Virus genome (UHGV): UHGV-0086138
Origin: a virus
Direction: 5' to 3' (one strand)
Length of the DNA stretch: 41,245 bases
The position numbers and the translations under genes were made by a program. The notes under the pieces were generated by a model. The model was given only the letters and a program-made list of their open reading frames with translations. It was not told where the DNA came from and searched no databases. This document shows positions 3,569 to 33,421 of this stretch, in pieces (positions within the stretch are counted from its first letter, which is position 1; each line of letters opens with the position of its first letter).

Positions 3569-3585
3569 GTTACCGTTGAGGTAAT
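3569..3585. promoter_or_regulatory. operator-like palindrome GTTACCGTTGAGGTAAT overlapping -10/+1 of leftward early promoter
   Basis: matches ATTACCy-N3-AGGTAAT family; lies between TTGACA promoter and the small ORF start. Confidence 0.55.
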
Positions 3586-3630: not shown

Positions 3631-3647
3631 ATTACCCATTAGGTAAT
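3631..3647. promoter_or_regulatory. operator-like palindrome ATTACCCATTAGGTAAT
   Basis: 17-bp inverted repeat upstream of leftward promoter. Confidence 0.6.
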
Positions 3648-3703: not shown

Positions 3704-4288
3704 TTATTGTTTGTTTTTTTCGTTCTGGTTGATGACAAATTCAATGTAACTTTCGATCTTTGCTTTCTCGGTTTCGGGTAACAATGCGTAGCGCGAGCGA
3801 TCATAGTTGATGGTCGCAGGGTCGTGCGGGTGAATCAGTAATTCATAGCCGTGACGCCCGAATGCGGATGCAACATTCTCCAGGGTGGAAATGGAAACGC
3901 TGACCTCATTGTTTAACAGGCGGCTGATTGTCACCTGGGCGACGCCGGATGCGCGGTGTAGTTTTCCCTGCGTTGAAAGGTCGCGGCTTTCGCTCATCCA
4001 GCGTTCCAGGTTGTGAGCCGCCAGCTGACCTATATCACTCGGGCCGACAGGCTGAAAACCTTCCTGAGAAAGCGAGCGATCGATATCAAGCCAGTTACGG
4101 GGTTTATTGGCGGCAGCTTCAATTTTTCGCGCAACCTGGTCGCCGATAACCTTCTTGCCAAGAGCCCAGCGGTTTACCAGATTTGCCTGAGTTCCAAGTT
4201 TTTCTGCCATCCGCGTCTGAACACCATTGAATTCACGGTCGATCAAGTCGTTGAGATTTTGCCTGCGGACGTCCTGGATACTTTTCAT
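3704..4288 (-). CDS. prophage repressor with two XRE-type helix-turn-helix regions; no LexA-like S24 peptidase domain evident
   Basis: 194 aa; HTH-like segments near residues 25-45 and 110-135; divergent from Cro-like gene with three operator palindromes in between. Confidence 0.7.
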   Translation of the reverse strand: MKSIQDVRRQNLNDLIDREFNGVQTRMAEKLGTQANLVNRWALGKKVIGDQVARKIEAAANKPRNWLDIDRSLSQEGFQPVGPSDIGQLAAHNLERWMSESRDLSTQGKLHRASGVAQVTISRLLNNEVSVSISTLENVASAFGRHGYELLIHPHDPATINYDRSRYALLPETEKAKIESYIEFVINQNEKNKQ

Positions 4289-4342: not shown

Positions 4343-4359
4343 ATTACCCAACAGGTAAA
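4343..4359. promoter_or_regulatory. operator O1 ATTACCCAACAGGTAAA (repressor/cro intergenic)
   Basis: first of three tandem palindromes between divergent repressor and cro genes. Confidence 0.65.
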
Positions 4360-4823: not shown

Positions 4824-5024
4824 ATGGAAATCATTACACGTATTGATGCCGCAAAGCGCGGACTTAAACGCTACTACACCGGAAAAACATGTAAGCACGG
4901 ACATGACAGTGAACGCTGGGTTTACAACGGACACTGTGTTGAGTGCACCATGGAATCAAACCGTCGTATCAGGGCAGAGATTAAGCAGATCATGATTAAT
5001 TCCTCCCCACAACATTCAAGCTGA
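4824..5024 (+). CDS. small Cys/His-rich protein in CII-equivalent position
   Basis: ATG 4824 with AGGG RBS; C-x-H...H-C-x-x-C arrangement; function unknown. Confidence 0.45.
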   Translation: MEIITRIDAAKRGLKRYYTGKTCKHGHDSERWVYNGHCVECTMESNRRIRAEIKQIMINSSPQHSS

Positions 5025-5039
5025 TAGCGGAGATTAATC

Positions 5040-5903
5040 ATGAGCAGACATGCAACAGATTGGGCCTGGGAGACAGATCCAGGTAGCTCATCATTAAAGC
5101 TCATACTGCTCTCGATGGCTGACAGAGCCGATGAATATAACCTCTGCTACCCCAGCATAGAACGCCTCGTTAAAGACACTTGCCTGAATAAAAAAACCGT
5201 GCAGGCCGGGCTTATATCGCTCATGAAAATGGGGCTTATTTCAGATACCGGAGAGAGAAAGGGAGCGACAAAAAGAGTGCGGGTTTTCTCTCTTAATATA
5301 ACCAAAAACGGGAACATTAAAGGCAACCGAGAGGGGGGCAATGAACCCGAAAACGGTAATGTTACCGAAAACGGGAATATACCCAAAAACGGGATGTTGA
5401 ATGATCCCAAAAACGGGATGTTGAATGATCCCAAAAACGGGATGTTGAATGATCCCAAAAACGGGATGTTGAATGATCCCAAAAACGGGATCCAGAACCA
5501 GTCATATAACCAGTCATTTAACCAAGAGAGGGAGAGCAGGACAAAAAACGGGGATTCTGTGCATCATGACCCCGGCGCAAACAACGCCGTGATGAATAAC
5601 TTTGTTCCTCCTGGTGGGCCAGGGCAATTAGGCAAATTTGTCATGCATGAACAATGGCAGCCATCAGATGACTTTCTTCGGAAAAGCTCATTGCAGGGGA
5701 TCTACCTGGACAGTCTGCCAACGGCACAGGAACTTGCAGAGTTCAGAATTTACTGGATGGCTGAGGGTAAGGCATACCATCAGGCACAGTGGGAGCAGAA
5801 GCTGGCAAGGCGGCTGCAGATTAGCAGACAGAAGCAATCAACATTACCTGATAACAACGTTCCGCACTGGAACAGCCCTGAAGCATGGGAGGATTTCTTG
5901 TGA
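5040..5903 (+). CDS. replication initiator (lambda O-like role) with N-terminal HTH and internal iteron array
   Basis: 287 aa; N-terminal HTH-type domain; 4 perfect 24-bp direct repeats inside gene (encode PKNGMLND x4); followed by P-like gene. Confidence 0.75.
   Translation: MSRHATDWAWETDPGSSSLKLILLSMADRADEYNLCYPSIERLVKDTCLNKKTVQAGLISLMKMGLISDTGERKGATKRVRVFSLNITKNGNIKGNREGGNEPENGNVTENGNIPKNGMLNDPKNGMLNDPKNGMLNDPKNGMLNDPKNGIQNQSYNQSFNQERESRTKNGDSVHHDPGANNAVMNNFVPPGGPGQLGKFVMHEQWQPSDDFLRKSSLQGIYLDSLPTAQELAEFRIYWMAEGKAYHQAQWEQKLARRLQISRQKQSTLPDNNVPHWNSPEAWEDFL
5347..5491 (+). repeat. iteron-like direct repeats inside replication initiator gene (4 perfect 24-bp units CCCAAAAACGGGATGTTGAATGAT at 5382-5477, flanked by degenerate copies)
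   Basis: perfect tandem units read directly; analogous to ori iterons inside lambda O. Confidence 0.7.
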
Positions 5904-6685
5904 ACAACGTTTTTACCGCGATACAAAACCGTGACGGAGAAGCCCTTTCTCGCATGTCAGGTTATGAGCATCAGTACACCAACAATGACAACGTGGTGAA
6001 CATGTCAGCAGAGAGGCTTGTTGATGCCCTTTTCAAACAGCTGAAACAACTGTTTCCGGCGGCAGTGGTAACCAACCTGAAGACGCCAGAGCAGGAAGTC
6101 GCTGCAAAACAGCAGTGGATTGCTGCGTTTGCCGAAGGTGGGATCCGAACCCGTGAACAGGTTTCTGCTGGTATGCGCCACGCCCGCGCCAGTGAATCTC
6201 CGTTCTGGCCGTCGCCAGGGCAATTCATCAAGTGGTGCAAAGACAGCAAGATGGTTCTTGGCGTCACCATTGACGATGTGATGGCGGAGTTTCACCGGTA
6301 CAGCAAGGAAAAAAGTTTATATCCTGGTAGTCCCGAAAGATTCCCGTGGCGACATCCGGTTATGTACTGGGTCGTATGTGATACCCGCCGTGCAATGTAT
6401 CAGCGCCAGCTTAGCGAGATTGAGGTTGAGAAACATGCGCGCAGGCTGCTCGATGATTGGGCGAAAAAGGTGGCTTCTGGACAGCAGATACCCGATCCGG
6501 TGATCAGCATACAGGCAAAGCCAGAGCCCATGAGTACACCTCCGGACACAGGGAGAGACGTTTACCATCCACCAGGGCGAAGTTTCGGATGCATGCCTAA
6601 CGCCGCCACCCTTGGGGGAATAACACCGGCGCAGTGGCTGATGGAGGAATACAGGCGAGGAAAGGCGGCAGGATTTATCAAGTAA
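5900..6685 (+). CDS. replication protein P-like helicase loader
   Basis: Recalled similarity to lambda P (segment ...GMRHARASESPFWPSPGQFIKWCK vs lambda ...GMRVARRQNRPFLPSPGQFVAWCR); start assigned to GTG 5900 after GGAGG RBS, overlapping O stop (GTGA). Confidence 0.8.
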   Translation: MNNVFTAIQNRDGEALSRMSGYEHQYTNNDNVVNMSAERLVDALFKQLKQLFPAAVVTNLKTPEQEVAAKQQWIAAFAEGGIRTREQVSAGMRHARASESPFWPSPGQFIKWCKDSKMVLGVTIDDVMAEFHRYSKEKSLYPGSPERFPWRHPVMYWVVCDTRRAMYQRQLSEIEVEKHARRLLDDWAKKVASGQQIPDPVISIQAKPEPMSTPPDTGRDVYHPPGRSFGCMPNAATLGGITPAQWLMEEYRRGKAAGFIK

Positions 6686-6690
6686 TACCA

Positions 6691-6710
6691 GCGCGATAGC
6701 GCATTTTTTT
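6691..6710 (+). terminator. weak intrinsic terminator after P-like gene
   Basis: short GC stem (GCGC-GATA-GCGC) followed by T7 run. Confidence 0.4.
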
Positions 6711-6721
6711 ACGCTCAAATA

Positions 6722-6738
6722 ATTACCCATCAGGTAAT
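6722..6738. promoter_or_regulatory. operator-like palindrome ATTACCCATCAGGTAAT
   Basis: after P-gene terminator. Confidence 0.6.
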
Positions 6739-6783
6739 AAAATATTCTAAACTCTATTGATTTCGTGTCTTATGTGGTTTTTA

Positions 6784-6800
6784 ATTACCTCAGAGGTAAA
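6784..6800. promoter_or_regulatory. operator-like palindrome ATTACCTCAGAGGTAAA overlapping RBS of 6803 gene
   Basis: follows TTGATT-17-TTTAAT promoter-like element; AGGT of right half doubles as Shine-Dalgarno. Confidence 0.6.
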
Positions 6801-6802
6801 TC

Positions 6803-7147
6803 ATGAGAAAACAGATGCAGGCTCTTGGTCGACTCAAAACAGGCCAGATGAACAAAACAGAATCTGCGTATTGCCAGCATCTTGAGCAGCGTAAACGTGC
6901 AGGGGAAATCGCCTGGTATCGATTCGAGGGTATCAAGCTGCGGTTAGCTGATAACACGTTCTATACGCCAGATTTCGCTGTGATGCTCGCCACCGGAGAG
7001 ATGGAACTGCACGAAGTGAAAGGTTTCTGGACCGACGACGCCAGGGTGAAAACCAAAGTCGCCGCAGATCAGTATCCGTTCCGAATCATCGGGGTAACGG
7101 TTAAGCCAAAGAAAGCAGGTGGCGGATGGAAAATCGAAGAGTTCTGA
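6803..7147 (+). CDS. DUF1064-family phage protein
   Basis: 114 aa; typical size and motifs of DUF1064 proteins found in phage replication modules. Confidence 0.6.
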   Translation: MRKQMQALGRLKTGQMNKTESAYCQHLEQRKRAGEIAWYRFEGIKLRLADNTFYTPDFAVMLATGEMELHEVKGFWTDDARVKTKVAADQYPFRIIGVTVKPKKAGGGWKIEEF

Positions 7148-7208
7148 ATCGACGATCTTTTTAGTTATCAATGTTATCAATAAGTTATGTGGATAAGCGA
7201 GGGTAAAG

Positions 7209-7688
7209 ATGGAAAGTAATATCAAAGGGTTAGTTGCCGCCGGGCATGAGATGGCTTCGGAACTGAAAGCAGAATGTGGTGCCGTTGATATGCGTAGTGT
7301 GGCAAAGCTGATCAGCGATTTGGCAACGCAACTGGAAGTGCAACTGGTGCGTGCTAATGCGCTGGCGGCGGAGAATGCGGGGCTGAAGTCTGGCGCTATG
7401 GACGAAATCAAGGTTATCAACCGTGGAGGGCAGGCATATTGCGTAAAAGATGGAGTGCAAGTTAATCCCATGTATGCAAGAGGGTGGAATGACTATCGCG
7501 CAAAGTCTCTGCAATCAGACACCCCAGCCACCGATGCTTTCCTGGCTGAAATTGAACGCAAAGCAATCCGCAAGTTCATTAACAGCATTGAACACATCCT
7601 GCGTGACAAGTTGTCACCGTATGACACCGAAGAGATGCTTGAGGCTATGCGTATTTTTCTGGAAGAACAGGGAGGTGAGCAAAAATGA
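7209..7688 (+). CDS. hypothetical protein
   Basis: 159-aa ORF, codon usage consistent with neighbours. Confidence 0.5.
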   Translation: MESNIKGLVAAGHEMASELKAECGAVDMRSVAKLISDLATQLEVQLVRANALAAENAGLKSGAMDEIKVINRGGQAYCVKDGVQVNPMYARGWNDYRAKSLQSDTPATDAFLAEIERKAIRKFINSIEHILRDKLSPYDTEEMLEAMRIFLEEQGGEQK

Positions 7689-7987
7689 CAATCACAAAAC
7701 AACGAGTAGAAAAAATCATATATCGCCATGAAATGGGACTGAACAGCGATGTCACCGCCGAAGAGGTTTATGACCTGGCTGTACTGGCGCTGAATTTATC
7801 AAATATCGCAAACCTGAAGCGATACGAGCTTGATATGGATGGTTGTGACTCGTTCGGTCAGGATTGTGGCGCTGACATGACTGAAGATCCTGATGGCGAT
7901 TATGTCCTGTTTGATGACGTGGTTAAGTTGTTTGAGTTTGATACATTCGAAAGCCCAGCAAGGGAGACAACCAGTGAGCAAGATTGA
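7685..7987 (+). CDS. hypothetical protein (N-terminus MTITKQR shared with two downstream genes)
   Basis: 100-aa ORF; acidic C-terminus. Confidence 0.5.
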   Translation: MTITKQRVEKIIYRHEMGLNSDVTAEEVYDLAVLALNLSNIANLKRYELDMDGCDSFGQDCGADMTEDPDGDYVLFDDVVKLFEFDTFESPARETTSEQD

Positions 7988-8372
7988 CTATCAGGCACTG
8001 CGTGAGGCGGCGGAACGTGCAATTCAAGCAATGGAACGCCTGTTAATGTTGCCAGCTGCTGATGATTTGTTAAGTGAACAGGAACTTAAAGATTACGGTG
8101 TGGATATTGATGTGCTCAACGCCTTCAAATTTCTGACCGGACCAGAAACCGTGCTGGCGCTGCTGGATGAACTAGAAGCTAAAAACAAACGCATTACAGA
8201 ACTGGAAGCGAGGGAAGTTCAATTACCGACTCGCTACGACCTTCGATATGGGCACCCAATAAATGCTGATAAGCGACATGTCATGATACCTAAAGAAAAT
8301 GGCAGTTGGCTTTGCCTGATTGACTTAGAACACGCACTACGCGTCGCTGGCATTCGCATCAAAGGAGAGTGA
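7974..8372 (+). CDS. Ead/Ea22-like protein
   Basis: GTG start after GGGAGA RBS; N-terminus SKIDYQALREAAERA typical of Ead/Ea22-like prophage proteins (recalled). Confidence 0.5.
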   Translation: MSKIDYQALREAAERAIQAMERLLMLPAADDLLSEQELKDYGVDIDVLNAFKFLTGPETVLALLDELEAKNKRITELEAREVQLPTRYDLRYGHPINADKRHVMIPKENGSWLCLIDLEHALRVAGIRIKGE

Positions 8373-8373
8373 G

Positions 8374-8781
8374 ATGACCACTATTACCAAAGAGCGACTG
8401 CTGACAATCAAGCAGTGGCGCGAAACATACGGACCGGGTAGCAACGTTGTACTGCCAGCAGAAGAAGCGGAAGAACTGGCACGAATTGCACTGGTATCGC
8501 TGGAAGCAGAGCCGGTGGCAAAGATTATAGCTCATTACCCATTAGGAGTTGACGTAGGCAAACAAAAGTTCGTACAGGCCATTGGAGAGCTTCCTGACTT
8601 TGGCGGATATCTATTTGCCGCCCCGCCAGCGCCGGTAGTGCCGGAAGAAGCAACTCCGGAAAACGTAGAAATGCTCTCTGGCTATGTTTCCACGTACAAA
8701 TTAACCGATAGCGAGCGCGATATTGCTGCCGAAATATGGAACGCCTGCCGCGCCGCTATGCTTCATGGGAAAGGAGAGTGA
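8374..8781 (+). CDS. hypothetical protein (paralogous N-terminus MTTITKER)
   Basis: 135-aa ORF. Confidence 0.5.
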   Translation: MTTITKERLLTIKQWRETYGPGSNVVLPAEEAEELARIALVSLEAEPVAKIIAHYPLGVDVGKQKFVQAIGELPDFGGYLFAAPPAPVVPEEATPENVEMLSGYVSTYKLTDSERDIAAEIWNACRAAMLHGKGE

Positions 8782-8782
8782 T

Positions 8783-9046
8783 ATGGCAACTTTAACAAAA
8801 AAAGAACGGGCATGGTTGAACGAATTACAGGACGTTCTTGATCGCTGCCCATCACCGAAAAAAATTGGTTTTTACACCATTGGCGATAAAAGCATTTACC
8901 TGTATGACCTGCGCCGCATGGATGAAATCATGGAGGCTCTTGATAATCGTTCGTCAATGGATTGGTGTGTTGCTGTCCATGATATGAATGCAGGGTTTGA
9001 TGAAAAGATTTTGTTCCCCTCATCAGTTGAAAGCACTGCGGGTTAA
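8783..9046 (+). CDS. hypothetical protein
   Basis: ATG 8783 with GGAGAG RBS; 87 aa. Confidence 0.5.
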   Translation: MATLTKKERAWLNELQDVLDRCPSPKKIGFYTIGDKSIYLYDLRRMDEIMEALDNRSSMDWCVAVHDMNAGFDEKILFPSSVESTAG

Positions 9047-9056
9047 GGAGTAACAC

Positions 9057-9635
9057 ATGACCACTATTACCAAAGAACGTATTGAATTGTTCATTAAAAA
9101 TCCGCTTGGAAACGGACTTACCCGTGGCGAACAAATGGAACTGGCACGAATTGCACTGGCATCACTGGCAGCAGTATCGGATGAACGAGCAGCCTATGAA
9201 TTATTTATGGAGAAGCGTTTCGGGGAATCTGTAGATCGCCGCAGGGCGAAAAATGGCGATAGAGAATACATGGCATGGGATATGGCGCTTGGCTGGATTA
9301 TCTGGTGTCACCGCGCCGCCATGCTTCAGGCTGGAAACTTTCGGGAAAATAAGGATTCGTCAACCAATAATTTTCGGGAAACCTCGGAAACGTCAACCAA
9401 CTCTCCGGTAACTCCGGATAGTTGGATAAGCTGTAGTGAGCGAATGCCTGAGAAGAATCAGAACGTGCTCATTTCGGTGAATTTCGATAGCTCTCTGGTT
9501 GAACCGCTAATATGCTCCGCACGCTATACCGGAAGCACTTTTCGGCGCGGAGATGCAACGATTAAGTCGGGTAATGGTATTGAGCAAGCAACTCACTGGA
9601 TGCCGCTACCGGAACCGCCGCAGGAGGTGAAATGA
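9057..9635 (+). CDS. DUF551-domain protein
   Basis: 192 aa; C-terminal region with W...PLPEPP pattern typical of DUF551. Confidence 0.55.
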   Translation: MTTITKERIELFIKNPLGNGLTRGEQMELARIALASLAAVSDERAAYELFMEKRFGESVDRRRAKNGDREYMAWDMALGWIIWCHRAAMLQAGNFRENKDSSTNNFRETSETSTNSPVTPDSWISCSERMPEKNQNVLISVNFDSSLVEPLICSARYTGSTFRRGDATIKSGNGIEQATHWMPLPEPPQEVK

Positions 9636-12947: not shown

Positions 12948-13145
12948 AATCTCACCTTAAAAAAATGCCCGGCGAACCGGGCGAACTGGAAGCAATGAGT
13001 TATGCCTTCCGTGGCTGTACTGGTTTACAGCATGAAGTCATCGCAATGGCGTCCTGCTGTAAAAAGGGCGGTGATAGTCCTTCAAGGGAAACCATCACCG
13101 CCAAGCCCCTGGAACTTCTGGCATCACGGTCCTTAGGCGTGATTC

Positions 13146-13222
13146 TGGCGTGGCATGCAGGATTCGAACCTGCGACCAACCGCTTAGAAGGCGGTTGCTC
13201 TGTCCAACTGAGCTAATGCCAC
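13146..13222 (-). tRNA. tRNA-Arg (anticodon UCU)
   Basis: Cloverleaf read from reverse complement: 7-bp acceptor stem GTGGCAT/ATGCCAC, D-arm GCTC..GAGC, anticodon stem ACCGC/GCGGT with loop CUUCUAA, T-arm GCAGG-TTCGAAT-CCTGC, 3' CCA encoded. Confidence 0.85.
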
Positions 13223-29389: not shown

Positions 29390-29761
29390 ATGAACAGAAT
29401 TATATTAATGATTATTCTTATGCTTTTAGTTGTAAAATCTTTTGCAGATACTACCTCACCGTTAATGATTCAGCCTAAAAATGGGGAAACACTGGAGGAT
29501 TCTAAAAAGCATACAATGGAATATTTTGGATGTATAAAAGGGCAGGTCGTAAAATACGCTAAGACAGGAGAAAGTGTTGATTCTATATCCAAAGCTTCGG
29601 TTGTGTCATGCGAGTCGTACATACAAAAGATTGCTGAATCAAATATATACTATTTAAATTCCTCTCAAGACGGTAAGCGGAAATTTATTGGAAGGCTTAA
29701 ATCAGATGGTGAAAATTTAGCAACGAAATTTGCTATGGATGAAAAGCTAAAAAATAAATAG
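29390..29761 (+). CDS. secreted protein with signal peptide (accessory gene)
   Basis: N-terminal hydrophobic signal (MNRIILMIILMLLVVKSFA); strongly AT-rich codon usage; GGGAAG RBS. Confidence 0.5.
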   Translation: MNRIILMIILMLLVVKSFADTTSPLMIQPKNGETLEDSKKHTMEYFGCIKGQVVKYAKTGESVDSISKASVVSCESYIQKIAESNIYYLNSSQDGKRKFIGRLKSDGENLATKFAMDEKLKNK

Positions 29762-29769
29762 GTGACTAC

Positions 29770-30066
29770 ATGCAAGCGATAGGATTCATTGTTTATATCG
29801 TCGTTGGTCTTTTTCAGTTGGCAGCAATTATGGCTGGGCTTGAATCATGGTGGGGATTGCACTGGATAATTGCAGCCCCCATTGCTTTCATCGTGAGCTA
29901 TATTCCATTTGTTGGAGCGATTGTTGGTATGGTTGGCGCTGTGGATGTATGGCGGTGGGAGTGGTGGCAGGCTGGCCTTCTCTTCTTTGGTGGGATCATC
30001 TTTGCTATTGTCTGCGGTGGAATGTCATCATTTTTCGAATGGCTATCATTCAGAAAAGGAACGTGA
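29770..30066 (+). CDS. small integral membrane protein (3 predicted TM helices)
   Basis: 98 aa, W- and G-rich hydrophobic segments; AGGTGA RBS; stop within 14-bp palindrome and followed by terminator. Confidence 0.5.
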   Translation: MQAIGFIVYIVVGLFQLAAIMAGLESWWGLHWIIAAPIAFIVSYIPFVGAIVGMVGAVDVWRWEWWQAGLLFFGGIIFAIVCGGMSSFFEWLSFRKGT

Positions 30067-30075
30067 CATGTCACA
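30062..30075. repeat. 14-bp palindrome CGTGACATGTCACA (copy 3, reverse-complement orientation)
   Basis: contains stop codon of 29770..30066, adjacent to terminator hairpin. Confidence 0.8.
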
Positions 30076-30100
30076 GGCCGCTTTCGCGGCCTTGTTTTTA
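30075..30100 (+). terminator. rho-independent terminator after accessory genes 29390..30066
   Basis: hairpin AGGCCGC-TTTC-GCGGCCT followed by TGTTTTT. Confidence 0.65.
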
Positions 30101-30259
30101 ACGAATGCCACCGCCGCCCGGGCGGGAATCCGCAGAACGCCCACCGCAGCGGGAGCCGTCAGCGGCAGTATCGCTGTCGTGCTGACAACGACCGGCAAAG
30201 GCCTGAGTTGAAGCTACCAGAGACAACAAAACGAACAGTGCAGCAAATGCTTTTTTCAT
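30098..30259 (-). CDS. small secreted peptide candidate
   Basis: 53 aa from ATG 30259: signal-like MKKAFAALFVLLSLVASTQAFA then Gly/Arg-rich tail; weak RBS. Confidence 0.3.
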   Translation of the reverse strand: MKKAFAALFVLLSLVASTQAFAGRCQHDSDTAADGSRCGGRSADSRPGGGGIR

Positions 30260-30352
30260 TGTGACATTTCCATCTATAAGCCACCTCAATGTGGCGTCAA
30301 TGAGTGTAGCACTGACTTTTGTTTCGTCCACAAAAAAGCCCTCGCCGCGGGC

Positions 30353-30877
30353 TTACCAAAACTTGTACCACGGGGATTTATCCTTCAATGGACAATCCTT
30401 CCATCGTGTGGCTAACCATTCATATTCTTTAAAATATGTGTTTATGTTTTCTTTTTCTCTAATAGCTTGTATAAGAGGTAGCGCAATCTGATAGTTATTT
30501 ACAACGGAGCTGTAAAATACTTCCTTAATCATGGTCTCATCATAAGTTTTCCGCTTCACGCTCACAGCCATGCGTTCGTAGAAACCTAGACAGTAAATTA
30601 TTTCTCTCTTCTCTATCTTTTCTTCATCCGTAAGATCAGCCTGCCCATTGCTTGGATACATATAAGAGCGGAATGATTTGTTCGACTCGTGAATGCGGCG
30701 CATAGTAGATAGGCCTTTCTTATAATCTACATCAAACCTGCTTTCACCAAGGAATACTGAAGTGTGTACTTTTCTCGCTGTATTTACATTATAAATAATA
30801 GTAGCGATAGCTATGAACAAGCCAAGCGAAACCGCGACTGCACTTACGATTTGAGCCACAGCCATGGCAAATTGCAT
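30353..30877 (-). CDS. membrane-anchored protein of unknown function (AT-rich accessory gene)
   Basis: N-terminal TM helix then about 140-aa soluble domain; start ambiguous between ATG 30877 and GTG 30892. Confidence 0.5.
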   Translation of the reverse strand: MQFAMAVAQIVSAVAVSLGLFIAIATIIYNVNTARKVHTSVFLGESRFDVDYKKGLSTMRRIHESNKSFRSYMYPSNGQADLTDEEKIEKREIIYCLGFYERMAVSVKRKTYDETMIKEVFYSSVVNNYQIALPLIQAIREKENINTYFKEYEWLATRWKDCPLKDKSPWYKFW

Positions 30878-30910
30878 TTCTTCACTTAACACAAACTGTC
30901 TCCAGACATG

Positions 30911-30933
30911 AAAACGGGGCCTAATGGCCCCGT
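30911..30933 (-). terminator. intrinsic terminator within leader upstream of membrane-protein gene
   Basis: 8-bp GC stem ACGGGGCC-TAAT-GGCCCCGT followed by T-run on minus strand; lies between mini-ORF and gene start. Confidence 0.55.
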
Positions 30934-31020
30934 CATTAAACTATCCGAATGTTAAACGCCTTCGTACTCGTCAAATTTTCTCATGTGGGCTCCTCCTGTA
31001 TCGGTGCCTAATCGCTATGG

Positions 31021-31037
31021 ATCACCCGTAAGGTAAT
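31021..31037. promoter_or_regulatory. operator-like palindrome ATCACCCGTAAGGTAAT
   Basis: upstream of minus-strand mini-ORF/leader and membrane-protein gene. Confidence 0.5.
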
Positions 31038-31081
31038 AGTACTCTATTCACCACCCTGTCTGCAATCGTACAGAATTATTT

Positions 31082-31099
31082 AAAAGCACATCCATGTGC
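31082..31099 (-). terminator. weak terminator downstream of antirepressor gene
   Basis: short hairpin GCACA-TCCA-TGTGC followed by TTTTAAAT on minus strand. Confidence 0.35.
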
Positions 31100-31108
31100 C
31101 ACCGCCCG

Positions 31109-31819
31109 TCAGAAGAACCCTGCCTTGTCGTTGATGTATTCCGCGTGCGTCTGGATATCACGCAGGCATTTGCTCACACCGACGATGTAGCAGAACATGG
31201 TGGTCAGCTCCGCCGCCGCGCCCGATACGTCGTGCCCGTCTTCCTGTAACTGGTTCAGCAGATTCATCAGCAGTGAGTTCTCCGTCAGGCCGAGAACACC
31301 AGACGGCGAGTGAATCAGGCTGCGGTAGCCGGGCTTCAGCGGGGCGCTGTAGGTTTTGTTCTCTATCTTCATTGCCTGCATCACTGCTGATGCTGTGGCG
31401 TTTGCAACCTGGTCGGCAACCATCTTTATGCGTTCTTCCTGCGGGAGCGAGTTTTTAATGTAACTTCCGGTGCGGCGGATCTGAGGAAGAACCTCACCTG
31501 TAACCCATTTACGAAAGCGGTAGGGGATAGTGCCTGGTGTCACTGCGTCGCGGCAGCGGAGGATCAGTGTGTAGAGGCCTGACTCGGAGATGATGTTGAT
31601 CTCTTTTACTCGGCTGTCAAAAATTGCACGATGTTCATGCCCTATGTTGAACATAGACCTTTCATCATCATCCAGTTTTTCAAGTGCTTGGGTGACGTTT
31701 TGGATACGCAGCGCACTACAAACGTCTTGGGCTACAAACCATGGTTGGCCATCGATAATGATGGAACGGATAGGGTTAACAGATTCAAATTTGAAGATGG
31801 CAGTTTGAGCATTAGCCAT
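31109..31819 (-). CDS. antirepressor (Bro-N domain plus C-terminal antirepressor domain)
   Basis: Bro-N-like N-terminus (FKFESVNPIRSIIIDGQPWFVAQDV); ATG 31819 with GGAG RBS; C-terminal domain paralogous to 32969..33226. Confidence 0.75.
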   Translation of the reverse strand: MANAQTAIFKFESVNPIRSIIIDGQPWFVAQDVCSALRIQNVTQALEKLDDDERSMFNIGHEHRAIFDSRVKEINIISESGLYTLILRCRDAVTPGTIPYRFRKWVTGEVLPQIRRTGSYIKNSLPQEERIKMVADQVANATASAVMQAMKIENKTYSAPLKPGYRSLIHSPSGVLGLTENSLLMNLLNQLQEDGHDVSGAAAELTTMFCYIVGVSKCLRDIQTHAEYINDKAGFF

Positions 31820-31975
31820 GGTGGTTATCTCCACTTAGTGATTTTAATCACCACCGCAACGCCAATTACTGGTGGTGAACTGGACAAGGTTGGCGTACCG
31901 GCCTAAGTGGTACCGGCGTCCTTTCGGACCCCTGCCCAGCCCACCATAATTCGGATATAGCTGTGCTTAACGCAT

Positions 31976-31997
31976 AAAAAAACCACGTCTGGCGTGG
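31976..31997 (-). terminator. intrinsic terminator inside antirepressor leader (minus strand)
   Basis: hairpin CCACG-CCAGA-CGTGG followed by T7 on minus strand, about 160 bp upstream of ant start. Confidence 0.5.
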
Positions 31998-32087
31998 TAT
32001 GCGCCACTTAGTAACTCGGGACGCCAATCCCGGCACTGGATTTTGCCAGTACCCGATTACTATGGCACAAGAGGAGTGCGATGTAAA

Positions 32088-32104
32088 TTTACCGCAAAGG
32101 TAAT
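32088..32104. promoter_or_regulatory. operator-like palindrome TTTACCGCAAAGGTAAT at antirepressor promoter
   Basis: overlaps -10/+1 of a putative minus-strand promoter (TTGATT...TTATCAT). Confidence 0.55.
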
Positions 32105-32181
32105 GATAAACGCGAAGAAATATTAAAAATCAACCGTATTTGGTTGGTTGCGTTTAACGCTTGATCACCTGAAAGCAAGAT

Positions 32182-32198
32182 ATTACCTTTAAGGTAAT
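32182..32198. promoter_or_regulatory. operator-like palindrome ATTACCTTTAAGGTAAT
   Basis: 20 bp upstream of the 32218 gene RBS. Confidence 0.6.
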
Positions 32199-32217
32199 GT
32201 TATTGTGAGGAAAAGCA

Positions 32218-32946
32218 ATGGAAGTTTTCTGGATAGTTGTTGGTGTGGTTGCGGTGATTATTTATGTTATCAACCAGAACAAGACTAAGATCTCTGATCG
32301 TACGGTCGTTAATCATAACAAAACGATAAAGACCGAAGATGGGGAGATAACGATTAATCGTACACAGGTGATAGAACACACCTCTACTCAGTTTCAAAAA
32401 ACTGGAGGTAATGCGCCTAATATTTCCGCACCTCCTGCTTATGATAGTGCGGTAATCCAGACATATTATAAACAGCAGGAGTTAGCAAAAGAGAGGCAAC
32501 TGATTCAGCCAAAGCCGTTTACAGCTGAGCTTCCACCTGGAGTGTCAACGCGTCCGGCATATCATGGAAGATTCCCTGGTGATGACATATCGTCTCAGTC
32601 ATCTAAAAAAGCACCTCAGGCAGTATCAGAGCCAGCAAGAATACCTTCTGTATCGCCGCCAAAAGAAGAATCAGCTAACAGAGTTTCAAGTGGTAGCAAG
32701 CAGTGCTTGCGATGCAGAATAAACCTACCATATGAAAAATTCAGGAAATCGTCAAAAAATCCAGATGGATTGACTAAGTGGTGTGCAAGGTGTCTCGATG
32801 GCCCAAAGAATACACGCCATATGAAGTGGTGCCCAATTTGTAATGTCCGCAGAAAACGAACCAGCTTTTACCCTAATAATCAAAATGCGGACGGATTAAT
32901 GGCATGGTGCAAAACGTGCTGGGATGAGCACAAAGCGAAACGATAG
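32218..32946 (+). CDS. membrane-anchored protein with duplicated C-terminal CxxC zinc-ribbon-like motifs
   Basis: N-terminal TM helix; two repeats of C-x2-C ... DGL-x-(K/A)WC-x(2)-C; GAGGA RBS. Confidence 0.5.
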   Translation: MEVFWIVVGVVAVIIYVINQNKTKISDRTVVNHNKTIKTEDGEITINRTQVIEHTSTQFQKTGGNAPNISAPPAYDSAVIQTYYKQQELAKERQLIQPKPFTAELPPGVSTRPAYHGRFPGDDISSQSSKKAPQAVSEPARIPSVSPPKEESANRVSSGSKQCLRCRINLPYEKFRKSSKNPDGLTKWCARCLDGPKNTRHMKWCPICNVRRKRTSFYPNNQNADGLMAWCKTCWDEHKAKR

Positions 32947-32968
32947 GCCGCTCTTGCGGCCTTTAAAT

Positions 32969-33226
32969 TTACCGGGTTTGTTTTCGTAATTGTTCGGCAC
33001 AATAGTCGAGATGTGTTTGCAGATCCCGCATAGACATCTGTGACCTGGTGACGTAGTTAATCAGTGCAGTCAGTTCGGCAAGTGGGCCATCGACATTAAA
33101 TCCATCCTTATCGAGATCCCGGAGTAATTTCATCAAGTGCGATCCCTCCACCAGTGATCTGACGCCTCCCGGCGTGTGAATCCTTTCGGTAAATCCGTCT
33201 TCCAGTGGATAGTGATACTGCTGCAT
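32969..33226 (-). CDS. small antirepressor-domain protein (paralog of Ant C-terminal domain), LexA-box controlled
   Basis: ATG 33226 with GGAG RBS; 86 aa aligns with C-terminal part of the 31109..31819 product; near-consensus LexA box lies upstream, which argues against the track start at 33349. Confidence 0.55.
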   Translation of the reverse strand: MQQYHYPLEDGFTERIHTPGGVRSLVEGSHLMKLLRDLDKDGFNVDGPLAELTALINYVTRSQMSMRDLQTHLDYCAEQLRKQTR

Positions 33227-33245
33227 CTTATCTTCTCCATACGAT

Positions 33246-33265
33246 AACTGTATATTTATACAGTA
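33246..33265. promoter_or_regulatory. LexA (SOS) box AACTGTATATTTATACAGTA
   Basis: CTGT-N8-ACAG with AT-rich spacer, 18 of 20 matches to consensus TACTGTATATATATACAGTA; about 20 bp upstream of the 33226 start. Confidence 0.7.
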
Positions 33266-33301
33266 ACAAATAATTTGTTTGCTATCCAGCACGTTTTGCA
33301 A

Positions 33302-33318
33302 ATCACCTGAAAGGTAAT
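33302..33318. promoter_or_regulatory. operator-like palindrome ATCACCTGAAAGGTAAT
   Basis: in divergent region between small antirepressor gene and tailspike gene. Confidence 0.55.
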
Positions 33319-33421
33319 ATCTGTTCGTATTTATGGGTTGTCTATCCATATGTGGTTTTTTAGGTAATAGAATGACCAGATATGCGGCGCAACGGGTGCT
33401 GCGACTATCTGGAGATTTAAC

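What the first reader, a model, noticed from the sequence alone, without database searches (positions are those of the whole stretch)
33226..33330. LexA box in front of a small antirepressor-domain gene: candidate SOS-to-antirepressor induction circuit
A 20-mer AACTGTATATTTATACAGTA (33246-33265), matching the LexA consensus at 18 of 20 positions, lies about 20 bp upstream of an ATG (33226, GGAG RBS) that opens an 86-aa protein homologous to the C-terminal domain of the Bro-N antirepressor encoded at 31109..31819. Combined with a repressor lacking an obvious self-cleavage domain, this suggests induction through a LexA-controlled antirepressor (as in coliphage 186 Tum or Gifsy-type prophages) rather than RecA-mediated repressor cleavage. 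The ORF track start at 33349 would place the LexA box inside coding sequence, which I consider unlikely.
Basis: partly seen in the sequence, partly recalled or inferred. Interest (0 to 1): 0.7.

Follow-up and report, generated by a model that had tools for sequence, protein, structure and literature searches.

The report
Known LexA-controlled phage antirepressor switch

Summary
AACTGTATATTTATACAGTA (33246-33265) is the only site in the window within 3 mismatches of the LexA consensus (0 expected). It lies 19 nt upstream of a minus-strand ATG (33226) with a GGAG ribosome-binding site. That ATG opens an 85-aa protein (not 86).

This protein is 85.5% identical to Ant of Salmonella phage SPC32H, and its 194-aa partner (3704-4288, minus) is a full-length homologue of SPC32H Rep. 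It has two HTH regions and no S24 self-cleavage domain. The Rep-Ant complex is solved (PDB 5D50). SPC32N, the clear-plaque variant, differs from SPC32H by one base in the same box (ACAG to AAAG).

Across 15 orthologous loci the box keeps its register. The half-sites are invariant in 10 loci while the centre varies. A conserved promoter-like site uses the left arm of the box as its -10. The 126-aa long ORF is closed by stops in 13 of 15 loci.

It occurs in about 10% of complete E. coli genomes.

The more interesting side finding is the Bro-N paralogue. It sits behind an isrK/C4 antisense-RNA cassette and Rep-type operators, so the prophage has a second, differently wired antirepressor with the same C-terminal domain.

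The parts
33246..33265 (.). LexA (SOS) box. Reads AACTGTATATTTATACAGTA on the + strand and TACTGTATAAATATACAGTT on the ant strand.
   Evidence: 18 of 20 to consensus; unique in the window, 0 expected. CTG sits at -37 from the ATG in 10 of 15 orthologous loci, with invariant CTGT/ACAG half-sites and 7 different central octamers. Intact in TL-2011b, phiV10 and ZX5 with other centres. The SPC32N variant has ACAG->AAAG here.
32969..33226 (-). ant: 85-aa antirepressor (stop codon included in the coordinates)
   Evidence: 85.5% identical to SPC32H ant, annotated anti-repressor protein. PDB 5D50 chain E 'Anti-repressor protein', E = 7e-46 over residues 2-84. phrog_450 E = 7.5e-47.
33235..33238 (-). 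Shine-Dalgarno GGAG, 8 nt before the ATG
   Evidence: Read directly from the sequence; the ATGGAGAAGA block is conserved in the orthologues.
33260..33288 (-). Predicted ant promoter: -35 TGGATA (33288-33283), 17-nt spacer, TG (33268-33267), -10 TACTGT (33265-33260). The -10 is the left arm of the LexA box.
   Evidence: Same hexamers and register (-62/-39 from the ATG) in 11 of 15 loci; weaker TGGAAA/TATATG in the 4 Klebsiella phages. This is a prediction only; no transcription start site data were available.
33302..33318 (.). Rep-type operator ATCACCTGAAAGGTAAT (family palindrome ATTACC-N5-GGTAAT), lying between the divergent ant and tailspike promoters
   Evidence: 17 copies at up to 2 mismatches in the window against 1.2 expected. 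The copies in epsilon15 coincide with that record's 'protein_bind repressor' features. Conserved in all 15 loci.
3704..4288 (-). rep: 194-aa repressor, the presumed target of Ant
   Evidence: 42% identity over the full length to SPC32H Rep, E = 2e-53. PDB 5D50 chain A E = 4e-42, 5D4Z E = 4e-20. HTH_3 hit and no S24 peptidase. Rep and Ant occur in the same phage records.
3569..4359 (.). Cluster of Rep-type operators flanking rep (3569-3585, 3631-3647, 4343-4359)
   Evidence: SPC32H and epsilon15 have the same layout around rep.
32945..32962 (.). G+C-rich hairpin between the convergent ant gene and the 32218-32946 gene; likely a shared terminator
   Evidence: The terminator scan scores it on the + strand. 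On the ant strand the T-run is poor, so its role for ant is inferred.
31109..31819 (-). Bro-N antirepressor paralogue; its C-terminal domain is homologous to Ant
   Evidence: Bro-N E = 1e-19. Residues 155-231 hit 5D50 chain E, E = 1.2e-13. 81% identical to ZX5 ORF4, with the last 162 residues identical. Overexpressing ZX5 ORF4 lowered lysogen counts about 1000-fold (PMC9782041).
31868..32104 (-). Control region of the Bro-N paralogue: Rep-type operator (32104-32088), promoter-like TTTACA-17-CATAGT (32087-32059), isrK/c4-a1b1 RNA (32052-31976), C4 antisense RNA (31951-31868)
   Evidence: Rfam isrK 63.5 bits (gathering 50), C4 66 bits (gathering 45), c4-a1b1 43.4 bits. Promoter and terminator scan. 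Operator. The same cassette precedes the Bro-N gene in phiV10, Tyrion, TL-2011b and Klebsiella phages.
33345..33373 (+). Predicted tailspike promoter TCCATA-17-TAGAAT, divergent from ant
   Evidence: TTCATA-17-TAGAAT is present in the same register in all 15 loci and is the top score in 13. Prediction only.

Best explanation
This is the ant-LexA-Rep antirepression switch of epsilon15-like (Uetakevirus) temperate podophages, here in an E. coli phiV10/TL-2011b-type prophage.

In the lysogen, Rep (3704-4288) occupies ATTACC-N5-GGTAAT operators and keeps lytic genes off. Host LexA sits on the box at 33246-33265. That box overlaps the -10 and the start region of the ant promoter, so LexA keeps ant silent.

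Rep has no S24 self-cleavage domain, so RecA* cannot inactivate it. DNA damage instead makes LexA cleave itself. The ant promoter then fires and the 85-aa Ant is made from ATG 33226. By homology with the SPC32H structure, an Ant tetramer binds two Rep dimers, breaks the DNA-binding Rep tetramer and releases the operators, which induces the prophage.

Shown here: the box, its uniqueness and its conservation; orthology of Ant and Rep to the experimentally and structurally characterised SPC32H pair; absence of a cleavage domain; and invalidity of the long ORF. Taken from the literature: LexA control and the Ant-Rep mechanism in SPC32H. Inferred: that this E. coli Ant acts on this more divergent Rep, and the exact promoter.
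For: - Box unique in the window, 18/20, 0 expected.
- Ant 85.5% identical to SPC32H ant, same length, same position divergent from the tailspike gene.
- The box keeps the same register in SPC32H. SPC32N differs by C->A in the ACAG half-site. By my recollection of Kim & Ryu 2013, this is the constitutive-Ant, clear-plaque mutation.
- PDB 5D50 holds Repressor and Anti-repressor chains matching the window proteins at E = 4e-42 and 7e-46.
[quoted passage not shown] Ant is made after LexA self-cleavage (PMC7380047 citing Kim & Ryu 2013).
- Rep has HTH only, no S24.
- Half-sites are invariant and the centre variable over 10 loci in at least 6 genera.
- A conserved promoter-like TGGATA-17-TGnTACTGT overlaps the box.
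- Rep and Ant co-occur in the same 35 phage records.
- The long ORF is closed in 13 of 15 loci.
Against: - There is no experimental datum for this E. coli copy. The one paper on a near-identical phage (ZX5: Rep 100%, Ant 97.6% identical) tested only the Bro-N paralogue and left this gene as hypothetical.
- Rep is only 42% identical to SPC32H Rep while Ant is 85% identical, so cognate binding is an extrapolation.
- In the Klebsiella/Superficieibacter clade the left half-site reads ATGT, so LexA control may be weaker or lost there.
- The promoter is a consensus prediction. A higher-scoring but non-conserved alternative exists in the window (TTGTTA-17-TATCGT).
- The primary papers could not be read here.
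Confidence: 0.88

Rival explanations
1. In this E. coli lineage the working antirepressor is the Bro-N paralogue (31109-31819), controlled by the isrK/C4 RNA cassette and Rep-type operators. The small LexA-controlled protein is then an auxiliary partner, for example a trigger that only starts a feedback loop or a subunit forming mixed oligomers through the shared domain, and not the sole inducer.
For: The paralogue carries the same C-terminal domain. Its near-identical ZX5 version lowered lysogeny about 1000-fold on overexpression with an identical Rep. Rep-type operators abut its promoter, which would give positive feedback once Rep is titrated.
Against: SPC32H and epsilon15 lack the Bro-N/C4 cassette entirely, yet SPC32H induction runs through the small Ant according to the literature. 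The small ant and its box are conserved in every relative, whereas the cassette is accessory. The two readings are not mutually exclusive.
Confidence: 0.1
2. The real gene is the 126-aa ORF from ATG 33349. The palindrome would then be coding sequence, or an intragenic LexA roadblock, and not a promoter operator.
For: The frame is open in the window and in SPC32H. Automatic gene callers often output 126/127-aa products, for example P0013 with 833 member sequences.
Against: A stop closes the extension within 0-13 codons in 13 of 15 orthologous loci, including epsilon15, a close relative of SPC32H. There is no Shine-Dalgarno before 33349, whereas GGAG precedes 33226. The crystallised SPC32H Ant is 86 aa. 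Curated and PGAP annotations use the short start.
Confidence: 0.02
3. The palindrome is a chance A+T-rich inverted repeat, or the site of another regulator. Under this reading ant is not SOS-controlled here.
For: No binding data exist for this copy. The intergenic region is A+T-rich. A Rep-type operator nearby could be the real control element.
Against: 0 of 100 shuffles give any site within 3 mismatches. The half-sites are invariant while the spacer drifts across genera. The SPC32H/SPC32N difference lies in the half-site. The sequence fits the E. coli SOS-box consensus exactly at CTGT-N8-ACAG.
Confidence: 0.03
4. Induction proceeds classically through RecA-stimulated self-cleavage of the repressor, with Ant dispensable.
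For: This is the default paradigm for temperate enterobacterial phages.
Against: Rep has no Peptidase_S24 match. Its C-terminal half is an HTH-type domain homologous to the solved SPC32H Rep(92-198) tetramerisation domain.
Confidence: 0.03

Closest known systems
Salmonella phage SPC32H Ant / Rep / LexA antirepression system (Kim & Ryu 2013, J Virol 87:11775; Kim et al. 2016, PNAS 113:E2480; PDB 5D50, 5D4Z)
   Same: Orthologous Ant (85.5% identity, 85 vs 86 aa). Same gene position, divergent from the tailspike gene. LexA box in the same register relative to the ATG. Homologous double-HTH, non-cleavable Rep. Same ATTACC-N5-GGTAAT operator motif dispersed over the genome. Same phage genus (Uetakevirus).
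   Different: The host is E. coli. Rep is only 42% identical, so immunity may differ. The central octamer of the box differs (ATAAATAT vs ATGTTTAT). The window also carries the isrK/C4-Bro-N antirepressor cassette, which SPC32H lacks.
Coliphage 186 Tum; Salmonella Gifsy-1/Gifsy-3 and Fels-2 antirepressors (Shearwin et al. 1998; Lemire et al. 2011, PMC3121763)
   Same: Same logic: a LexA-repressed gene for a small protein that inactivates a non-cleavable phage repressor by binding it.
   Different: No detectable sequence similarity. tblastn of Ant against 50,697 phage records at E <= 1e-5 returns only Uetakevirus-type phages and related Klebsiella prophages, and there is no Pfam family hit. From my recollection of its abstract, the SPC32H paper describes Ant as structurally distinct from those antirepressors.
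P22 immI (ant, mnt, arc, sar RNA)
   Same: An antirepressor gene located next to the tailspike gene of a temperate podophage.
   Different: P22 Ant is large, is controlled by Mnt/Arc and sar RNA, and is not required for SOS induction (the c2 repressor is cleaved). No sar match in the window and no sequence similarity to the small Ant.
P1/P7 immI (c4 antisense RNA - icd - ant) and Gifsy-1 isrK-orf45-anrP. These are relevant to the Bro-N paralogue, not to the finding itself.
   Same: Full-length Rfam matches above the gathering score to isrK and C4, directly upstream of a Bro-N antirepressor gene.
   Different: The antirepressor's C-terminal domain is the SPC32H-Ant-type domain. The promoter is flanked by this phage family's Rep-type operators. 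No icd/orf45-like ORF was examined here.

Membership tests
SPC32H-type Ant-Rep-LexA antirepression system | Small (~86 aa) Ant protein homologous to SPC32H Ant | tested here: met
   85.5% identity over residues 2-84; 5D50 chain E E = 7e-46; alignment.
SPC32H-type Ant-Rep-LexA antirepression system | LexA box immediately upstream of ant, overlapping its promoter | tested here: met
   The box is at the same register as in SPC32H. The overlap with the promoter rests on a conserved consensus-type prediction, not on a mapped transcription start site.
SPC32H-type Ant-Rep-LexA antirepression system | Cognate Rep: two-domain HTH repressor without an S24 autocleavage domain, homologous to SPC32H Rep | tested here: met
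   42% identity over the full length; 5D50_A E = 4e-42 and 5D4Z_A E = 4e-20; no Peptidase_S24.
SPC32H-type Ant-Rep-LexA antirepression system | Synteny: ant lies between the injection/structural genes and the divergently transcribed tailspike gene | tested here: met
   The window has extra genes (29390-32946) inserted on the far side of ant.
SPC32H-type Ant-Rep-LexA antirepression system | LexA binds the box and ant is SOS-induced | not testable with these tools
   Needs a gel shift or footprint and expression assays. Indirect support comes from half-site conservation and the SPC32N base change.
SPC32H-type Ant-Rep-LexA antirepression system | Ant binds Rep and releases it from its operators | not testable with these tools
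   Inferred from homology to 5D50 and from Rep/Ant co-occurrence. No complex prediction tool was available.
Canonical gamma-proteobacterial SOS box | CTGT-N8-ACAG palindrome with an A+T-rich centre, close to TACTGTATATATATACAGTA | tested here: met
   18 of 20, both half-sites perfect, centre ATATTTAT.
186 Tum / Gifsy / Fels-2 antirepressor family | Sequence homology to Tum-type antirepressors | tested here: not met
   tblastn against all phage records returned only Uetakevirus-type phages and related Klebsiella prophages. No Pfam hit at E <= 0.01 other than a sub-threshold DUF724 match. It works like Tum but is not a member.
186 Tum / Gifsy / Fels-2 antirepressor family | LexA-repressed promoter driving the antirepressor | tested here: met
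   (sequence level only).
P22-type immI antirepressor | Large Ant with Mnt/Arc repressors and sar antisense RNA | tested here: not met
   No sar match in the window. The protein is 85 aa with no ANT-type Pfam domain.
P1 immI / Gifsy-1 isrK-type RNA-controlled antirepressor (applies to the Bro-N paralogue only) | C4 antisense RNA and its a1/b1 (isrK) element upstream of an antirepressor gene on the same strand | tested here: met
   C4 66 bits (gathering 45), isrK 63.5 bits (gathering 50), both full length. Recurs in relatives.
P1 immI / Gifsy-1 isrK-type RNA-controlled antirepressor (applies to the Bro-N paralogue only) | Small translationally coupled ORF (icd/orf45-like) between the RNA and ant, targeted by C4 | not tested
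   Not examined. The ZX5 record annotates a short 'ash family protein' ORF at that place.

The most novel reading that the evidence does not exclude
The prophage carries two antirepressors built on the same Rep-binding domain but wired to different inputs. The stand-alone 85-aa Ant is under LexA (SOS). A Bro-N-Ant fusion is under a P1-type isrK/C4 antisense-RNA immunity cassette, and its promoter abuts Rep-type operators.

If both act on the same Rep, SOS-made Ant would derepress the Bro-N-Ant promoter. That would give a positive-feedback commitment step, or let an infecting phage antagonise a resident prophage. Because SPC32H Ant works as a tetramer, mixed oligomers are possible.

This would also make the 5D50 structure a template for the so far uncharacterised C-terminal domain of a large class of Bro-N 'antirepressors'. 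The conserved Rep-type operator between the ant and tailspike promoters could add Rep feedback on ant itself.
Probability: 0.3. Interest if true: 0.45.

Novelty: already known. Interest (0 to 1): 0.15.

Why it matters
As a discovery it does not matter much. The mechanism, the proteins and even the crystal structure of the complex are published for the sister phage SPC32H.

Its practical value is for annotation. The gene is labelled 'hypothetical protein' in all E. coli records listed in the searches here, and the module is in 529 of 5,426 complete genomes (about 10%), including O157- and O103-associated phages. Automatic callers often output a wrong 126-aa product. A recent study of a near-identical phage overlooked it.

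Recognising it tells us that these prophages should be SOS-inducible through LexA and not through repressor cleavage. That is relevant to antibiotic-triggered induction.

The side observation is the only part that might repay experiments: a second, RNA-controlled antirepressor sharing the same domain.

Tried and rejected
1. The long 126-aa ORF from 33349: rejected. Stops in 13 of 15 orthologues, no Shine-Dalgarno sequence, and the solved protein is 86 aa.

2. Other CTGT-N8-ACAG hits at 13015 and 17557: rejected as LexA sites. Their centres are G+C-rich and they fail the 20-mer consensus at up to 3 mismatches.

3. A LexA box in front of the Bro-N paralogue: none found. Its control region turned out to be isrK/C4 plus Rep-type operators.

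4. Homology to Tum, Gifsy or P22 antirepressors: none at tblastn or Pfam sensitivity.

5. Alternative ant promoter TTGTTA-17-TATCGT. It scores highest in the window, but it is not conserved in SPC32H and other relatives, and its start site would fall at or after the Shine-Dalgarno sequence. An upstream TAGACA-17-GATATT is likewise not conserved.

6. The primary papers (PMC3807360, PMC4983836, PMC2698709, and the J Virol DOI) are not held. Mechanistic statements therefore rest on citing papers, database annotations and my recollection of the abstracts.

7. The genome-contig scan returned only 6 loci, because a single-protein query finds close relatives only. The large protein search showed almost only stand-alone 85/86-aa forms and did not list fused architectures among the top 120.

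Full report
**What is in the sequence**

The 20-mer AACTGTATATTTATACAGTA lies at 33246-33265. It matches the E. coli SOS-box consensus TACTGTATATATATACAGTA at 18 of 20 positions. Both CTGT/ACAG half-sites are perfect and the centre is A+T-rich. It is the only site in the 41-kb window within three mismatches of the consensus, and none of 100 dinucleotide-preserving shuffles produced any such site. The looser CTGT-N8-ACAG pattern occurs three times against 0.61 expected. The other two occurrences have G+C-rich centres.

The associated gene is on the minus strand:
- ATG at 33226.
- GGAG at 33238-33235, 8 nt before the ATG.
- Stop codon at 32971-32969.

The product is 85 aa. The box ends 19 nt before the ATG.

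The product is 43% identical (E = 3e-16) to the last ~75 residues of the Bro-N protein encoded at 31109-31819.

**Which start codon**

An in-frame ATG at 33349 would give 126 aa and put the box inside coding sequence. I extracted the orthologous upstream regions from 14 other loci: SPC32H, epsilon15, Tyrion, BUCT554, four Klebsiella phages, and prophages in Citrobacter (two), Erwinia, Superficieibacter, Pseudocitrobacter and Scandinavium.
- The frame upstream of the short start is closed by a stop within 0-13 codons in 13 of the 15 loci. Only the window and SPC32H keep it open, and epsilon15, a close relative of SPC32H, does not.
- There is no Shine-Dalgarno sequence before 33349.
- GenBank submitters and PGAP use the short start.
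- The crystallised SPC32H protein is 86 residues.

The 126/127-aa products in automatic gene calls, for example P0013 with 833 members, are artefacts of longest-ORF calling.

**What it is**

The window is an integrated phiV10/TL-2011b-type (epsilon15-like, genus Uetakevirus) prophage of E. coli.

The 85-aa protein is 85.5% identical to the product of the gene annotated 'ant: anti-repressor protein' in Salmonella phages SPC32H and SPC32N. That gene has the same length and the same position, divergent from the tailspike gene. The protein matches chain E ('Anti-repressor protein') of PDB 5D50 at E = 7e-46.

The window's candidate repressor is 3704-4288 (minus strand, 194 aa), divergent from a small cro-like ORF.
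- It aligns over its full length with SPC32H Rep (42% identity, E = 2e-53).
- It matches 5D50 chain A ('Repressor', E = 4e-42) and the Rep C-terminal-domain entry 5D4Z.
- Pfam finds HTH_3 in the C-terminal half, a weak HTH-like match in the N-terminal half, and no Peptidase_S24.

**Published mechanism**

The primary papers are not in the held library. They are Kim & Ryu 2013, J Virol 87:11775, and Kim et al. 2016, PNAS 113:E2480.

Citing papers state two things:
- In several Salmonella prophages, LexA self-cleavage leads to synthesis of an antirepressor that inhibits the repressor by protein-protein interaction. Kim & Ryu 2013 is cited for this (PMC7380047).
- SPC32H Rep binds DNA as a tetramer, and the tetrameric Ant binds two Rep dimers and breaks the tetramer (PMC9638917; also the bioRxiv preprint).

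From my own recollection of the 2013 abstract, SPC32H and SPC32N differ by two nucleotides. One of them lies in the LexA-binding site overlapping the ant promoter and makes Ant constitutive. The sequences bear this out: in the ant-tailspike intergenic region the two records differ at one base, which turns the ACAG half-site into AAAG.

**Independent comparative evidence for the box**

In 10 of the 15 loci a CTGT-N8-ACAG box has its CTG exactly 37 nt before the ATG. The flanking TACTGT and ACAGT are invariant. The eight central bases occur in seven different versions. TL-2011b, phiV10 and ZX5 add further central variants with intact half-sites. This is the pattern expected for selection on LexA contacts and not for mere shared descent.

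In the four Klebsiella phages and the Superficieibacter prophage, the left half-site reads ATGT and one base is inserted. Whether LexA still binds there is open.

**Promoter geometry (predicted)**

I scored all 15 upstream regions with an approximate sigma-70 matrix. One candidate recurs at the same register in 11 loci:
- -35 TGGATA (window 33288-33283).
- A 17-nt spacer.
- An extended -10, TGnTACTGT (TG at 33268-33267, hexamer at 33265-33260).

The four Klebsiella phages carry a weaker version at the same register. This candidate accounts for the otherwise unexplained conserved blocks CTGGATAG and TTTGnTAC in the alignment. It also makes the left arm of the LexA box the -10 hexamer, which is the classic occlusion arrangement. 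The transcript would start near 33253, giving a leader of about 27 nt.

A higher-scoring alternative in the window (TTGTTA-17-TATCGT) is not conserved, and its transcript would start at or beyond the ribosome-binding site, so I set it aside. No start-site data were available, so this remains a prediction.

**Rep operators**

The alignment also showed a conserved palindrome, ATTACC-N5-GGTAAT, at 33302-33318. It is 37 bp upstream of the box.
- The motif occurs 17 times in the window at up to 2 mismatches, against 1.2 expected.
- Copies flank rep (3569, 3631, 4343) and precede several operons.
- In epsilon15 the same motif coincides exactly with the record's 'protein_bind: repressor' features. 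SPC32H has the same layout.

It is thus the presumed Rep operator, apparently conserved despite Rep divergence.

The copy at 33302-33318 lies between the predicted ant promoter and a tailspike promoter candidate found in all 15 loci: TTCATA-17-TAGAAT, which reads TCCATA/TAGAAT at 33345-33373 in the window. It overlaps neither promoter, so its role here (tailspike control, feedback on ant, or both) is not established.

**Co-occurrence and prevalence**

tblastn of Ant and of Rep against 50,697 phage records recovers essentially the same set of records (35 and 36-37). Rep falls into discrete identity classes: at least 98% in E. coli phages, 75-78% in Enterobacter, 45% in Klebsiella and 42% in Salmonella. 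Ant is far more conserved (58-99%).

The ant-box segment is present at 90% identity or more in 529 of 5,426 complete E. coli genomes. Every record listed annotates it as 'hypothetical protein'.

The only paper I found on a near-identical E. coli phage is on vB_EcoP_ZX5 (Rep 100% and Ant 97.6% identical to the window's). It tested the Bro-N 'ORF4 anti-repressor' by overexpression and left the small gene unannotated (PMC9782041).

**Comparison with known systems**

- SPC32H type: this is a member. All sequence-level defining features are met. LexA binding and Ant-Rep binding cannot be tested with these tools.
- 186 Tum and the Gifsy/Fels-2 antirepressors: it works like them but is not a member. 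Neither tblastn against all phage records nor Pfam detects any similarity.
- P22 type: it is not a P22-type Ant. There is no sar, Mnt or Arc, and the size is different.

**Side finding: the Bro-N paralogue**

The C-terminal domain of the Bro-N paralogue also matches 5D50 chain E (E = 1.2e-13). Its last 162 residues are identical to ZX5 ORF4, whose overexpression lowered lysogen counts about 1000-fold.

Upstream of it on the same strand lie full-length Rfam matches above the gathering score to isrK (31976-32052) and to the C4 antisense RNA (31868-31951). These are preceded by a promoter-like site (32087-32059) that abuts a Rep-type operator (32104-32088), and a second, perfect operator lies at 32182-32198.

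The same isrK-C4-Bro-N cassette follows ant in phiV10, Tyrion, TL-2011b and Klebsiella phages. It is absent from SPC32H and epsilon15.

So this prophage has two antirepressor modules that share one domain. One is under LexA and the other is under a P1-immI/Gifsy-isrK-type RNA switch. Whether they cooperate is the only open question of some interest.

**Verdict**

The system is already known and structurally characterised in a sister phage. Interest is low (0.15). The value lies in correcting the annotation of a common E. coli prophage gene, and in the possible two-input antirepressor design.

Noticed in passing
window 31868-32104 (minus strand): Full-length Rfam matches to isrK (31976-32052) and the C4 antisense RNA (31868-31951), plus a near-threshold c4-a1b1 match, directly upstream of the Bro-N antirepressor paralogue. 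They are preceded by a promoter-like site abutting a Rep-type operator. This is a P1-immI / Gifsy-1 isrK-anrP-type cassette. It recurs in phiV10, Tyrion, TL-2011b and Klebsiella phages but is absent from SPC32H and epsilon15.
   Followed up: partly
window 3569, 3631, 4343, 4728, 6722, 6784, 10399, 10417, 13544, 31021, 32088, 32182, 33302 (17-mers): The dispersed palindrome ATTACC-N5-GGTAAT has 17 hits at up to 2 mismatches against 1.2 expected. It lies in front of many operons. In epsilon15 it is identical to the sites annotated as repressor-binding. The motif is conserved although Rep is only 42% identical between the E. coli and Salmonella phages.
   Followed up: partly
L007 and L013-L016, about 40 nt upstream of the ant ATG: In the Klebsiella phages and the Superficieibacter prophage, the LexA box has ATGT instead of CTGT in the left half-site and a 1-nt insertion. 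LexA control may be weakened or altered in this clade.
   Followed up: no
window 33345-33420 (+ strand): The tailspike promoter candidate TTCATA-17-TAGAAT is conserved in all 15 loci, with a lone GGTAAT half-operator over its spacer/-10. It is followed by a conserved G+C-rich palindromic block (about 33384-33405) in the tailspike leader.
   Followed up: partly
window 32218-32946 (+ strand): A 242-aa protein (phrog_6762) with C-terminal zinc-ribbon/endonuclease-VII-like repeats is inserted between ant and the isrK/C4 cassette. In phiV10 and ZX5 the cassette follows ant directly on the same strand.
   Followed up: no
window 36485-37423 (minus strand), repeats near 36520-36610: A hexapeptide-transferase-like ORF ends in four tandem copies of an 8-residue unit (TAAQQHSS). 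This is a 24-bp tandem repeat that could vary in copy number.
   Followed up: no
window 39512-39528: ATTGAGTGGGAGTGATT is one mismatch from the attP/attB core reported for phage ZX5 (guaA 3' end). It marks the right prophage end. The integrase is not in the window, which starts at the MT-A70 methylase gene (50-712).
   Followed up: partly
L019 (E. coli SW070919 chromosome) 4954-9341: This chromosome is 100% identical to the window over ant and the box, yet its tailspike gene is split by an IS3-family insertion. The tailspike gene is intact in the window.
   Followed up: no
window 13146-13222 (minus strand): tRNA-Arg (anticodon TCT), also present in SPC32H and ZX5.
   Followed up: no
L018 (TL-2011b) 1037-1104: An Rfam sar RNA (P22 immI antisense) match just above threshold in TL-2011b. 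There is no counterpart in the window.
   Followed up: no
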